Source of the DNA: Octopus vulgaris
Lineage: Eukaryota
Reading direction: 5' to 3'
NCBI GenBank assembly: GCA_951406725.2
Contig: OX597815.1
Span: 51,646,001 to 51,710,000 of the forward strand
Length of the DNA stretch: 64,000 nucleotides
Shown here piece by piece: positions 9,700 to 14,336 of the stretch. The stretch's first letter is position 1, and every line of letters begins with the position of its first letter. Made by a program: the position numbers.

Positions 9700-9826
9700 A
9701 TGGGATGTGCGACACAGAAAGTGTGGTGTGTAAGTGAAGTGCTTTTGTTAGTGTGTGTAAAGAGACAGAGAGAGTACACATACCTATATGATGATATATA
9801 TATATATATATCATCATCATCATATC

Positions 9827-9865
<39 letters not shown>

Positions 9866-11592
9866 TATATATATATACTAGCAGTATCGCCCGGCGTTGC
9901 TTGGGTTTGTTTCGACCCGCTGGAATTGTAATTTTGAAAAGTAAAAATTTTGTGAACATTTTTCTGGTCGAAATACACCGAAAAGTGGCGACACAGCAGT
10001 AAAAAAATCGTAAAAAATAGGGATTTTCATAGAAAAAAGCAGCATTTTGATGTAAATAATTTTTGGTGTTAACATGGTCCGATTTGAATTTTATGTTCTA
10101 CGGAAGAAAGAGCAACCCTTCTTCTATCATACTCTCAATTTTGGTCAACTTGCGCCGCAGGGTCTCGGAGGAGATAGTGTTAGTTGAAGGTTACCAAACA
10201 TGGTGCACACAGACAACTTCAGCTTCATATAGAGATAACACACACACATTAATACATATACATAGACACACACACACATGTATGTATGGATGTATATATG
10301 TACATCTGTCCACTTCTTGCAATATTTTTATCCTTCACTTCTTACACACACACACACACACCTTATTAGCTTACAATTTCTTCCTGTCAACAATTGACAA
10401 CAGAAGTACGCTCGCCAATTAATACTACCAAAATTTAACGACAGAAAGTAAATTAAAAACCAATTTACCTTTTCTGTATTGTTTTCTGTACACCTAAAGC
10501 ACGCACACACACACACACACACAAGCGGAGCGCGAACTTCAAAAGAACTTTGCGCGCTATCTATCTGGTTTGCCATTCCTCACACACACGCATACACATA
10601 CATATATGACAGTGACAAACACAAACGTTTCAAACAACTACATACAAACACGTGTGTGTTTGTTATTAGTAAAAAGGCGGTAAAATTACAGATTATCACC
10701 CCCACGATTTTCACTAAGAAAAAAAAAAACTCGGATTTTTTGCGTGGAATCAAATACCCTGACCTCCTAATATGCTGCAAATCCCATATTTTGGTCCGGA
10801 ATTCCTCCGGAAAAGGGGGGGTATTACCCCCCCCCGGAATTTTCACAAGGAAAAAAAAAAAAAATCAGATTTCTAGCGTGGAATCAAGTACCCTGACCTC
10901 CTAATATGCTGCAAATCCCATATTTTGGTCCGGAAAGGGGGGGGGTAACACCCCCCCCCCGGAATTTTCACAAGAAAAAAAAAATCAGATTTTTTGCGTG
11001 GAATCAAGTACCCTGACCTCCTAATATGCTGCAAATCCCATATTTTGGTCCGGAATTGCTCCGGAAAGGGGGAGTAACCCCCTCCCCCGGAATTTTCACA
11101 AGGAAAAAAAAAATAACATATCAATAATTTAGAAAAGAAACATTTCTAGAAAATAGTAAATTGAAGTGTCAACAAATTATTGGGCAAAATTGAAGTGTGA
11201 ACAAATCATTGGGCAAAAGAAGATTTGGCATACTGTCATGCTTTTAGCTGTCAGAAGTGAAAGTCGTCAACTTCGTGTATTTGCGTCAGGTTCGCTGTTA
11301 GGCTTATAAAACAATAGAAGTTCAGTTTAAAGTTTATAAATAAATACATTTCATTCCATGTTCTGTTTAAACTTTATAAATAAATATATTCTTGCAGTGT
11401 GTGTATATGTGGCTATATGTCTGACTAATGTGTGTGTCTGTATTTATTGTATGTGTGTATAAGTAGTTATATGCTTATATTATCCATTATAGTAATATTT
11501 GTCTGTTGAAACCTGTTTTAAGGCGGTCAATAGTTTAATTAAAGATGTATCTATACATGTATATATATATACAGGTGTATATATACATGTGT

Positions 11593-11627
<35 letters not shown>

Positions 11628-12759
11628 TATATATATACACATGTCTATATATATACACATGTATATATAAATATATATATATACATGTATATATATATAC
11701 ATGTATAGACACATCTTTAATTAAACTATTGACCGCCTTAAAACGGGTTTCAACAGACAAATATTACTATAATGGATAATGTAATGGATAAAATTCAGAC
11801 AAACTTACCTCTTGCTGTCAAAAAAAGTGGATTAATTCTCAGCAAAACATACTGTTATGCTAGACCAGTGGTTTTCAACCAGGGTTCCGCAAGAAGTTGC
11901 AAAACTGCTAAAATCGGCAGTAATTTTTAATTCTCCTGTGCAGATATGTGTGCATAAGACTATTAAATTATTGTACAGGGGTTCCTCGAGCCAGTGGAAT
12001 GTTTGAATTACGCTGTGTGGTTTCAGTTTCTAATTTTTGCTTCTGATCTCTCTTTGCCCCCCTCTCTATCTCAGTTGTTCATTCTGCAGATATTTAGAAA
12101 AGTTTTCGCGCCAAGTTTTGTTGTGGGCGGGAAAAGATGAACGATTTAAAATAAATATACCTTAATTGTAGTGTGAGAAAGTATATATATTCTGATGATA
12201 AAATATATTATCTTTCAAAAACATACCAAATTTATAGACTATATCGTGTATGTTTAAGAAATGGTTCATGAGACATTGTTCATCTGTCTCCCCACCACAC
12301 CTCCACCTACACAAAAATTAGTTTGAGATAGAGAGGGCGGCACAGAGAGAGATCAGAAGTAAAAATTAGAACCTGACACTATCACAGAGCGTAATTCAAA
12401 CATTCCACTGGCTCGAGGAACCCCTGTACAATAATTTAATAGTCTTATGCACACATATCTGCACAGGAGAATTAAAAATTACTGCCGATTTTAGCAGTTT
12501 TGCAACTTCTTGCGGAACCCTGGTTGAAAACCACTGGTCTAGCATAACAGTATGTTTTGCTGAGAATTAATCCACTTTTTTTGACAGCAAGAGGTAAGTT
12601 TGTCTGAATTTTATCCATTACATTATCCATTATAGTAATATTTGTCTGTTGAAACCCGTTTTAAGGCGGTCAATAGTTTAATTAAAGATGTGTCTATACA
12701 TGTATATATATACATGTGTATATATATATATTTATATATACATGTGTATATATATAGAC

Positions 12760-12819
<60 letters not shown>

Positions 12820-14200
12820 ACACATGTATATATACACCTGTATATATATATATATATATATACATGTATAGATACATCTTTAATTAAACTATTGACCGCC
12901 TTAAAACAGGTTTCAACAGACAAATATTACTATAATGGATAATATAAGCATATAACTACTTATACACACATACAATAAATACAGACACACACATTAGTCA
13001 GACATATAGCCACATATACACACACTGCAAGAATATATTTATTTATAAAGTTTAAACAGAACATGGAATGAAATGTATTTATTTATAAACTTTAAACTGA
13101 ACTTCTATTGTTTTATAAGCCTAACAGCGAACCTGACGCAAATACACGAAGTTGACGACTTTCACTTCTGACAGCTAAAAAGCATGACAGTATGCCAAAT
13201 CTTCTTTTGCCCAATGATTTGTTCACACTTCAATTTTGCCCAATAATTTGTTGACACTTCAATTTACTATTTTCTAGAAATGTTTCTTTTCTAAATTATT
13301 GATATGTTATTTTTTTTTCCTTGTGAAAATTCCGGGGAGGGGGTTACCCCCCTTTCCGGAGCAATTCCGGACCAAAATATGGGATTTGCAGCATATTAGG
13401 AGGTCAGGGTACTTGATTCCACGCAAAAAATCTGATTTTTTTTTTCTTGTGAAAATTCCAGGGGGGGGTGTTACCCCCCCCCTTTCCGGACCAAAATATG
13501 GGATTTGCAGCATATTAGGAGGTCAGGGTACTTGATTCCACGCTAGAAATCTGATTTTTTTTTTTTTTTTCCTTGTGAAAATTCCGGGGGGGGGTTACCC
13601 CCCCTTTTCCGGAGGAATTCCGGACCAAAATATGGGATTTGCAGCATATTAGGAGGTCAGGGTATTTGATTCCACGCAAAAAATCCGAGTTTTTTTTTTT
13701 TTTCTTAGTGAAAATCGTGGGGGTGATAATCTGTAATTTTACCAAAAAGGCGCCAAACACAACTCACTTCTCATTCGAACACATTTGCAAAAACACACCG
13801 ACGGTCGAATTGCCATAACAATACAGAAAAGGTAAATTGGTTTTTAATTTACTTTCTGTCGTTAAATTTTGGTAGTATTAATTGGCGAGCGTACTTCTGT
13901 TGTCAATTGTTGACAGGAAGAAATTGTAAGCTAATGAAATTGAGAGTATGATAGAAGAAGGGTTGCTCTTCCTTCCGTAGAACATAAAATTCAAATCGGA
14001 CCATGTTAACACCAAAAATTATTTACATCAAAAAGCTGCTTTTTTCTATGAAAATCCCTATTTTTTACGATTTTTTCACTGCTGTGTCGCCACTTTTCGG
14101 TGTATTTCGACCAGAAAAATGTTCACAAAATTTTTACTTTTCAAAATTACAATTCCAGCGGGTCGAAACAAACCCAAGCAACGCCGGGCGATACTGCTAG

Positions 14201-14253
<53 letters not shown>

Positions 14254-14336
14254 GATATGATGATGATGATATATATATATATATATATCATCATCATCAT
14301 CATCATATAATATATATATGATGATGATGATGATGA

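What the first reader, a model, noticed from the sequence alone, without database searches (positions are those of the whole stretch)
9785..14308. Inverted symmetry continues beyond the transposon's TSD in discontinuous steps
Seen: outside the TSD-defined element, the right flank has ~65 bp of unique DNA. It then copies 10482->10365, jumps to 10141->9878, and continues through the Helitron's flanking microsatellite (9877->9785 mirrored at 14201-14308). Because the insertion-site flank is also mirrored, these are not two independent Helitron insertions. Inference: the foldback hairpin brought its flanks together and multi-step template switching, or alternative transposition using the 118-bp IR ends, enlarged the palindrome.
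Basis: partly seen in the sequence, partly recalled or inferred. Interest (0 to 1): 0.72.

Follow-up and report, generated by a model that had tools for sequence, protein, structure and literature searches.

The report
Foldback transposon inside a larger inverted duplication
A 3-kb hairpin-shaped transposon with intact insertion scars sits in the middle of a second, larger mirror-image duplication of its own left flank, and the sequence alone cannot say which came first.

Summary
Window 9785-14308 is a three-layer palindrome.

- **Inner layer:** a non-coding foldback-type transposon (10679-13743). It has about 1.4-kb arms, 120-134-bp tandem subrepeats at the arm ends and a 250-bp loop. An 8-bp target-site duplication, AAAAAGGC, sits flush on both sides.
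- **Outer layer:** the right flank carries 65 unique bases. It then mirrors left-flank 10483->10365 (119/119), adds one filler base, mirrors 10141->9878 (261/264), and mirrors a compound microsatellite (9877->9785). The mirror stops at 9785/14308.
- **Copies elsewhere:** no other copy of any piece lies in the 64 kb.

The mechanism is not shown. The foldback's termini keep their matched duplication. The mirror starts 195 and 73 bp away from them. X/X' has no duplication of its own. The "Helitron" label rests only on CTAG|T.

My odds:
- 0.4: the foldback landed in the 260-bp spacer of an existing inverted duplication, which lost or never copied 222 bp in one arm.
- The rest: a composite element, an artefact, or independent insertions.

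No eukaryotic collection could be searched, so the order stays open. Interest is modest.

The parts
9785..9877 (.). Left copy of the mirrored compound microsatellite: (GAT)n(AT)n(CAT)n ATCAT (AT)n GTACAC(ATAC)n (AT)n
   Evidence: Aligns to RC of 14201-14308 with 89 columns, 0 mismatches and 4 repeat-number gaps.
9878..10141 (-). Block H, left copy.
   Evidence: 261 of 264 identical to RC of 13937-14200; mismatches at 10001, 10044 and 10107. The terminal 19-mer occurs only at these two places in the window.
10142..10364 (.). Left-only 223 bp, rich in (CA)n/(TG)n; represented in the right arm by a single base
   Evidence: Only low-complexity similarity to anything else in the window.
10365..10483 (.).
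   Evidence: 119 of 119 identical to RC of 13817-13935. Folds into two hairpins as single-stranded DNA, z = -3.5 (right copy folded).
10484..10670 (.). Left-only 187 bp: left part of the pre-insertion spacer
   Evidence: No significant similarity to the right-only 65 bp in either orientation.
10671..10678 (+). Target-site duplication AAAAAGGC, left copy (9 bp if the next G is counted)
   Evidence: Flush with the first base of the inner arm. Chance of this 8-mer at a fixed place is about 2e-5.
10679..12073 (+). Left arm of the foldback-type element: terminal 25-mer GGTAAAATTACAG..., about 3.3 tandem subrepeats of 120-134 bp (10692-11119), inner domain with a nested mini-palindrome (11475-11784)
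   Evidence: 9 mismatches and 14 gap events in 1389 aligned columns against the right arm. Terminal 25-mer found only at the two ends.
12074..12323 (.). Middle domain (loop) of the foldback element, 250 bp, non-coding
   Evidence: No Pfam family in any of the 16 ORFs of 70 aa or more between 9622 and 14307.
12324..13743 (-). Right arm of the foldback-type element (subrepeats 13305-13723, mini-palindrome 12618-12947)
13744..13751 (+). Target-site duplication AAAAAGGC, right copy
13752..13816 (.). Right-only 65 bp: right part of the pre-insertion spacer
13817..13935 (.). Block X', inverted copy of 10365-10483
13936..13936 (.). Single filler base (g) at the X'/H' joint, standing in place of the 223 bp present in the left arm
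13937..14200 (+). Block H', inverted copy of 9878-10141, ending CTAG followed by T
14201..14308 (.). Right copy of the mirrored compound microsatellite; the mirror ends here

Best explanation
There are two separate structures, one inside the other.

**(1) An inverted duplication.** A stretch of about 700 bp (compound microsatellite + H + 223 bp + X) exists as a head-to-head pair around a 260-bp unique spacer. It was most likely made by a replication-type fold-back or template switch. The return jump fell in the self-complementary (AT)n/(GAT)n microsatellite. Its right arm lacks 222 bp, either skipped when it was made or deleted later, and the joint carries one filler base.

**(2) A foldback-type transposon.** A non-autonomous element of 3065 bp then integrated by ordinary cut-and-paste into that spacer. 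It duplicated the 8-bp target AAAAAGGC. Its ends played no part in making the outer mirror.

**Shown:** the anatomy, the flush duplication, the near-identity of both layers, and the unrelatedness of the two spacer halves.
**Inferred:** the order of events, and the replication-type origin of the outer duplication.
For: - The 8-bp direct repeat is flush with perfect arm ends. An intact element therefore integrated between 10678 and 13752 (chance about 2e-5).
- The two spacer halves (187 and 65 bp) are unrelated to each other in either orientation, and both are rich in CAAACA-like runs, as expected for one continuous target.
- The mirrored blocks start 195 and 73 bp from the foldback ends, so nothing ties the junctions to the element.
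- The outer arms carry 3 substitutions in 383 columns. The inner arms carry 1 in 1170 columns once the TA microsatellite and the last 59 loop-proximal columns are set aside (Fisher p = 0.049). This is the direction expected if the outer pair is not the younger one.
- Nesting of palindromic elements is common in this window. A mini-palindrome lies in each foldback arm. A 362-bp palindrome lies between the 180-bp inverted repeats of another element at 51709-53530.
- The inner element matches the published foldback plan: flanking domain, tandem repeats, inner domain, middle domain, duplications of 8-10 bp (Tetris, PMC4079207, passages read).
Against: - A young 3-kb insertion falling by chance in one given 260-bp spacer is unlikely. 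My rough estimate is about 1%: two such elements per 64 kb.
- The divergence argument is weak. With all inner columns counted, p = 0.73. With the microsatellite columns kept, p = 0.19. Arm-to-arm gene conversion, or error-prone synthesis when the copy was made, could give the same pattern.
- No duplication or terminus marks the outer structure, so its origin is inferred.
- No empty site, allele or second family copy was seen. None of H, X or the foldback recurs in the 64 kb.
- Long palindromes are known from the literature (recalled) to provoke exactly this kind of rearrangement, which favours the rival order.
Confidence: 0.4

Rival explanations
1. The foldback inserted first. Later, during replication or break repair next to the hairpin-prone element, a nascent strand 73 nt past its right end switched to the left flank. 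It copied 10483->10365, jumped to 10141 (one filler base), copied on to 9785, and returned to the right flank within the (AT)n/(GAT)n microsatellite. This enlarged the palindrome.
For: - The concentric layout needs no coincidence if the hairpin caused the event.
- With the foldback snapped back, the two switch points are only about 268 nt apart (195 + 73).
- The return point lies in self-complementary TA repeats that also occur in the right flank.
- Both layers are almost identical in substitutions (3/383 and 9/1389, p = 0.73), as expected for recent events.
- Template switches at short interrupted inverted repeats are documented to make inverted copies (ODIRA, PMC10766183, passages read).
- One filler base at a jump is a usual signature (recalled).
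Against: - The switch points are not at the foldback ends, and the matched duplication is untouched.
- The outer pair is, if anything, more diverged than the clean part of the inner arms (p = 0.049).
- The ancestral right flank is unknown, so microhomology at 13816/13817 cannot be scored.
- ODIRA junctions in yeast prefer spacers of 40-80 bp, shorter than the spacer here.
- An interstitial two-copy product needs at least three switches in one event.
Confidence: 0.3
2. The whole 9785-14308 block (or 9878-14200) is one composite mobile element. Its long terminal inverted repeats are microsatellite + H + X, and an older foldback is nested inside. The mirrored 'flank' is then part of the element.
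For: - Foldback-type elements have long, modular, internally repetitive arms.
- Galileo arms grow by recruiting sequence (PMC3573991, passages read).
- Some Mutator-like elements target TA microsatellites (PMC4486113, search listing and start of abstract only).
- The outer ends lie in TA-rich repeats.
Against: - No direct repeat is recognisable at 9785/14308. At 9878/14200 a TA-run 'duplication' is trivial.
- The arms differ by a 222-bp gap.
- Galileo's reported extension is inward, from internal sequence, not outward.
- There is no second copy in 64 kb.
Confidence: 0.1
3. Assembly or library artefact: the right-hand outer segment was created by a chimeric or fold-back read, or by a wrong path through the palindrome.
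For: - Long palindromes are hard to assemble (recalled).
- The arms differ mostly by homopolymer and microsatellite lengths: 14 gap events against 9 mismatches. Long-read consensus errors look like this.
Against: - A wrong path through the arms would place the reverse complement of the left flank, with an inverted duplication, directly against the right arm. Instead the direct repeat and 65 unique bases are present.
- Unique DNA continues on both sides with no N.
- The three junctions and three true substitutions are not what a single chimeric read gives.
Confidence: 0.1
4. Two independent head-to-head insertions of one young element (X+H with a microsatellite tail), 260 bp apart. The left copy carries a later 223-bp insertion, and the foldback landed between the two.
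For: - X' and H' are contiguous in the right arm.
- In this genome a common repeat always carries an (ATC)n run at one end, in 9 of 9 copies inspected. Microsatellites can therefore travel with elements.
Against: - The compound microsatellite is mirrored with identical interruptions and 0 mismatches in 89 columns.
- No duplications flank either copy.
- No third copy lies in 64 kb.
- The 223-bp piece has no insertion signature.
Confidence: 0.05

Closest known systems
Foldback-type non-autonomous transposons (Drosophila FB, recalled; Tetris of D. virilis, PMC4079207; Galileo, PMC3573991)
   Same: - Arms of about 1.4 kb, almost identical.
- Tandem subrepeats near the arm ends.
- A short non-coding middle domain.
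- A duplication of 8(-9) bp, within Tetris's 8-10 bp.
   Different: - No sequence similarity could be tested.
- Family size, transposase and superfamily are unknown.
- The subrepeat unit is 120-134 bp with a G-run/C-run core.
- A further mirrored layer lies outside the duplication. None of the passages I read describe that.
Replication template-switch inverted duplications (ODIRA, PMC10766183; fold-back inversions and DUP-TRP/INV-DUP, recalled)
   Same: - An inverted copy of nearby DNA around a unique spacer.
- More than one jump.
- A single filler base at one joint.
   Different: - Two copies, not a triplication.
- The spacer is 260 bp (or 3.3 kb with the foldback), against the 40-80 bp preferred in yeast.
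- The short inverted repeat that would have primed the switch cannot be identified without the ancestral sequence.
Alternative transposition of Ac/Ds (sister-chromatid transposition with re-replication; bioRxiv 10.1101/2020.01.07.897926)
   Same: Produces inverted duplications of flanking DNA next to a transposon.
   Different: There the transposon ends are moved and a new 8-bp duplication flanks the composite insertion. Here both foldback ends keep the original matched duplication and X/X' has none.
Helitron
   Same: Ends in CTAG followed by T, next to A/T-rich DNA.
   Different: - No 5' TC end.
- No convincing 3' hairpin (z = -0.12).
- No Rep/helicase ORF.
- No other copy.
- The two copies lie tail-out as part of a longer mirrored stretch.

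Membership tests
Foldback-type TIR transposon | Long, nearly identical terminal inverted repeats making up most of the element | tested here: met
   Arms 10679-12073 and 12324-13743. 9 mismatches in 1389 aligned columns, plus 14 length differences in homopolymers and microsatellites.
Foldback-type TIR transposon | Tandem subrepeats inside the arms | tested here: met
   2.5-3.1 units of 119-120 bp by TRF and 3-4 units spaced 119-134 bp by the repeat finder, at 10692-11119 and 13305-13723.
Foldback-type TIR transposon | Target-site duplication of fixed length flush with both ends | tested here: met
   AAAAAGGC at 10671-10678 and 13744-13751; 9 bp if the next G is counted. Chance about 2e-5.
Foldback-type TIR transposon | Several dispersed copies, or empty sites showing mobility | not testable with these tools
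   No second copy in the 64-kb window.
Foldback-type TIR transposon | Assignment to a transposase superfamily | not testable with these tools
   No ORF with a Pfam family inside the element. Duplication length alone (8-9 bp) fits hAT or Mutator-like.
Helitron | 3' end CTRR, inserted before a T without a duplication | tested here: inconclusive
   CTAG|T at 14197-14201 and mirrored at 9877-9881. The site is a TA run, so the A/T context carries no weight.
Helitron | Stable hairpin about 10-12 nt upstream of the 3' end | tested here: not met
   Folding of 14130-14205 gives -5.7 kcal/mol. 87 of 200 shuffles fold at least as well, z = -0.12.
Helitron | 5' end TC after an A; Rep/helicase ORF or related copies | tested here: not met
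   The homology ends at 13817 (T|AACAAT), not at A|TC. No Pfam hit among the 16 local ORFs. No other copy of the terminal 19-mer.
Template-switch / fold-back inverted duplication | Inverted copy of adjacent DNA around a unique spacer | tested here: met
   X/X' and H/H' lie around a spacer of 195 + 65 bp whose halves are unrelated.
Template-switch / fold-back inverted duplication | Short pre-existing inverted repeat or microhomology at each switch | tested here: inconclusive
   - At 13816/13817 any priming repeat would be hidden in the arm ends.
- At X'/H' there is a 1-nt filler.
- The outer junction lies in (AT)n/(GAT)n.
- The ancestral sequence is needed.
Alternative transposition (Ac/Ds type) | A transposon end abutting the rearranged flank, with a new duplication | tested here: not met
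   The foldback ends keep one matched duplication. The flanks of X/X' (CCTT| and |GAAA) are not a direct repeat.

The most novel reading that the evidence does not exclude
A foldback transposon's own hairpin drove outward growth of its palindrome. By stalling replication and holding its flanks together, it made a nascent strand copy the opposite flank in several jumps. A palindrome can then spread beyond the target-site duplication. Host DNA, here a repeat end and a microsatellite, becomes recruited into ever longer inverted repeats. That would be a way to make new long-arm elements and hairpin-RNA loci.
Probability: 0.3. Interest if true: 0.55.

Novelty: new member of a known kind. Interest (0 to 1): 0.32.

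Why it matters
Long palindromes are fragile and recombinogenic. How they arise and grow in animal genomes is mostly known from yeast, from disease loci and from a few Drosophila transposons.

This locus preserves an intact insertion scar inside a larger mirror, so the order of two events could be read directly from a second allele or a sister species.

- **If the foldback came first**, this is a natural example of a transposon hairpin seeding palindrome growth into host DNA.
- **If it came second**, it points to nesting of hairpin elements in the spacers of inverted repeats.

Either way the 4.5-kb structure, if transcribed, would fold into a long double-stranded RNA.

As it stands this is a well-documented structural curiosity in repeat-rich, non-coding DNA.

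Tried and rejected
- **Other copies in the window.** BLASTN with and without the low-complexity filter, word sizes 11 and 7, nhmmer, and terminal-motif scans with up to 3 mismatches. Only microsatellite matches turned up, plus two weak 40-55-bp hits to H that I do not trust.
- **Hidden homology among the unique pieces.** I compared the left-only 223 and 187 bp, the right-only 65 bp, the loop and both outer flanks, in both orientations, against 100 shuffles each. Only (CA)n/(TA)n-type similarity appeared. The shuffles were mononucleotide, so even those scores are inflated.
- **Continuation of the mirror beyond 9785/14308.** None found.
- **Structured RNA or tRNA-derived heads.** 0 Rfam matches at gathering score over the whole window and 0 tRNAs.
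- **Coding capacity.** 12 long ORFs, then 149 ORFs of 70 aa or more with entropy of 3.6 bits or more (selected from a larger, uncounted set; scanned). Only RVT_1/PHD at 18383-19294 and DDE_3 at 27400-27795 scored, and neither is in the locus.
- **Naming the organism from the reverse transcriptase.** The best hits are 48-66% identical and come from fish, cnidarian, bivalve and unnamed records. My impression that the common SINE-like repeat looks cephalopod is recall only.
- **U-turn replication inside the foldback arms.** Rejected: it predicts the mirrored flank directly against the arm with an inverted duplication, which is not what is there.
- **A clean insertion signature for the 223-bp left-only piece.** No duplication and no inverted ends.
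- **Literature.** One search for foldback + transposon + cephalopod found 0 papers. Searches gave the comparison papers cited. None of the passages I read describe a mirror continuing outside a foldback's duplication. Four searches do not show that it is unpublished.
- **Not checked.** Any eukaryotic genome, reads or haplotypes.
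Full report
**Setting.** The window is AT-rich (about 20-45% G+C in 2-kb bins), contains no N and is full of microsatellites and dispersed repeats. Its only recognisable protein remnants are a LINE-type reverse transcriptase with a PHD finger (18383-19294) and a DDE_3 transposase fragment (27400-27795). These came from 149 ORFs of 70 aa or more that passed an entropy filter. No Rfam family reached its gathering score and no tRNA was found. The reverse transcriptase has relatives at 48-66% identity in fish, cnidarian, bivalve and unnamed records, which does not name the organism. 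The DNA is clearly animal-like and not human-like.

**Check of the observation.** Self-comparison and a gapped arm-to-arm alignment give the following anatomy:

| Coordinates | Feature |
|---|---|
| 9785-9877 | compound microsatellite |
| 9878-10141 | block H |
| 10142-10364 | left-only DNA, 223 bp |
| 10365-10483 | block X |
| 10484-10670 | left-only DNA, 187 bp |
| 10671-10678 | AAAAAGGC |
| 10679-12073 | inner left arm |
| 12074-12323 | loop, 250 bp |
| 12324-13743 | inner right arm |
| 13744-13751 | AAAAAGGC |
| 13752-13816 | right-only DNA, 65 bp |
| 13817-13935 | X' |
| 13936 | one base (g) |
| 13937-14200 | H' |
| 14201-14308 | mirrored microsatellite |

- X/X' is identical at 119 of 119 positions.
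- H/H' is identical at 261 of 264.
- The microsatellites align over 89 columns with no mismatch and four repeat-number differences, and they share the same interruptions.
- The mirror stops at 9785/14308. Between 4000-9784 and 14309-20000 the only inverted matches are a copy of the window's common SINE-like repeat and short low-complexity hits.

**The inner element.** The 3065 bp between the two AAAAAGGC copies has the plan of a foldback-type transposon.

- The terminal 25-mers are perfect and occur nowhere else in the window.
- About three tandem subrepeats of 120-134 bp lie near each end.
- A long inner domain holds a 310-330-bp mini-palindrome with a TA-repeat loop.
- A 250-bp middle domain carries no ORF with a Pfam family.
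- The direct repeat is flush with the arm ends. This 8-mer is expected at a fixed place about 2e-5 of the time.

This is the flanking-domain / tandem-repeat / inner-domain / middle-domain layout described for Tetris, with duplications of 8-10 bp (PMC4079207, passages read). The arms differ by 9 substitutions in 1389 aligned columns. Five of those lie in the last 59 columns next to the loop, and three are adjacent in the TA microsatellite. That leaves 1 in 1170 elsewhere. The remaining 14 differences are length changes in homopolymers and microsatellites.

**What the outer mirror is, and is not.** H, X and the compound microsatellite are mirrored together, and none of them has another copy in 64 kb. 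It is not two insertions.

The Helitron label is weak. The only supporting feature is CTAG followed by T, inside a TA run. The 3' region folds no better than shuffled sequence (z = -0.12). The homology ends at T|AACAAT rather than A|TC. No Rep/helicase remnant is present.

One caution applies. In this genome a common repeat carries an (ATC)n run at one end in 9 of 9 copies inspected. Microsatellites can therefore be part of mobile units, and 'flank' is an assumption.

**Tests of the proposed mechanism.**

- **A replication U-turn within the foldback arms** would put the mirrored left flank, with an inverted copy of the duplication, directly against the right arm. Instead the direct repeat and 65 unique bases follow. 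That version is excluded.
- **Alternative transposition** would move a transposon end and leave a new duplication, as in the maize Ac/Ds cases (bioRxiv 10.1101/2020.01.07.897926, passages read). Here both foldback ends keep their matched repeat, and X/X' is flanked by ...CCTT| and |GAAA.... That version is not supported either.
- **A template switch or fold-back some distance from the element** remains. In such products the short priming repeat becomes the innermost part of the arms (ODIRA, PMC10766183, passages read). Without the ancestral right flank, the junction at 13816/13817 therefore cannot be scored for microhomology.
- **The joint between X' and H'** has one filler base. Relative to the left arm it skips 223 bp that show no insertion signature. 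It is either a jump or a later deletion.
- **The outer junction** lies in self-complementary (AT)n/(GAT)n repeats, which the right flank also contains. That is a plausible place for a strand to return.

**Order of events.** The two spacer halves (187 and 65 bp) are unrelated in either orientation. Together with one copy of the duplication they form a 260-bp spacer before insertion.

- *Reading A: the inverted duplication existed and the foldback landed in its spacer.* The cost is a coincidence. My rough estimate is about 1% for a given 260 bp, from two such elements per 64 kb.
- *Reading B: the foldback was there first and the duplication formed around it.* With the hairpin folded, the switch points are about 268 nt apart. 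This reading gains if palindromes provoke such events, as is known from the literature (recalled).

Divergence leans slightly toward the outer layer not being the younger one. The counts are 3/383 for the outer arms against 1/1170 for the clean inner columns, Fisher p = 0.049. The lean vanishes if the microsatellite columns (p = 0.19) or all columns (p = 0.73) are counted. Gene conversion or error-prone copying could also produce it.

Nesting of palindromic elements is common in this window, which helps reading A a little.

I give 0.4 to reading A and 0.3 to reading B. The rest goes to a composite mobile element (0.1), an artefact (0.1) and independent insertions (0.05).

**Artefact.** A wrong assembly path through the palindrome, or a single fold-back read, does not predict the direct duplication, the 65 unique bases, three separate junctions and three true substitutions. 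Unique DNA continues on both sides. I cannot check reads, so some doubt remains.

**Comparison and novelty.** The inner element is a new, unnamed member of the foldback kind. Its superfamily is untestable here: 8-9 bp fits hAT or Mutator-like. The outer layer is an inverted duplication of a known general kind. Galileo's reported arm extension recruits internal sequence, not flanks (PMC3573991, passages read). In the passages I read and in four searches I saw no description of a mirror continuing outside a foldback's duplication. That is a thin basis for claiming novelty.

**What stayed unchecked.** No eukaryotic genome, haplotype or read set could be searched.

Noticed in passing
window 11475-11784 and 12618-12947: Each foldback arm holds a self-complementary mini-element of 310-330 bp. 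Its arms are 75-95 bp around a (TA)n/(CA)n loop, 89-90% self-identity. It is a third, innermost layer of palindrome. No clear duplication is visible at its ends.
   Followed up: partly
window 10692-11119 and 13305-13723: The 120-134-bp subrepeats of the foldback arms each contain a G-run / short spacer / C-run core (GGGGGGG..TAAC..CCCCCCC) that would itself form a small hairpin. Most length differences between the arms sit in these runs and in the A/T runs beside them.
   Followed up: no
window 51709-53530: A second, unrelated element has about 180-bp inverted repeats (95% identical, 1462 bp apart). A 362-bp perfect-type palindrome (52819-53180, 92%) is nested between them. Its ends lie next to TTAA, which is itself palindromic, so a duplication cannot be called.
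   Followed up: partly
window 14698-14910, with copies near 3409-3455, 4865-5009, 17919-18132, 20488-20701, 25774-25849, 26895-26976, 44136-44228, 48013-48087, 62211-62256: An abundant SINE-like repeat beginning ...GTTTAACGTC..CCATGCTAGCATGGGTTGGACGG. It is always preceded by an (ATC)n run (9 of 9 copies inspected), and in about 5 of those 9 by a TA-rich run as well. Microsatellites in this genome are therefore often attached to mobile elements.
   Followed up: partly
window 14200-14370: The right-hand microsatellite is itself roughly self-complementary (83% over about 170 bp): (GAT)n(AT)n(ATC)n ... (GAT)n(AT)n. Part of the apparent mirror at the outer edge comes from the repeat type.
   Followed up: partly
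window 9184-9332 and 9501-9755: The left flank holds a diverged direct duplication with segments 317-423 bp apart at 77-94% identity. This is another local repeat just outside the palindrome.
   Followed up: no
window 18383-19294 and 27400-27795: Remnants of a LINE reverse transcriptase with a PHD finger (RVT_1, E = 1e-32) and of a Tc1/mariner-type DDE_3 transposase (E = 5e-12). These are the only protein-family matches among the ORFs scanned.
   Followed up: partly
window 22000-27100: A very AT-rich block (20-26% G+C) made of TA-rich arrays and large diverged direct repeats, for example 25045-25935 vs 26143-27069 at 80%.
   Followed up: no
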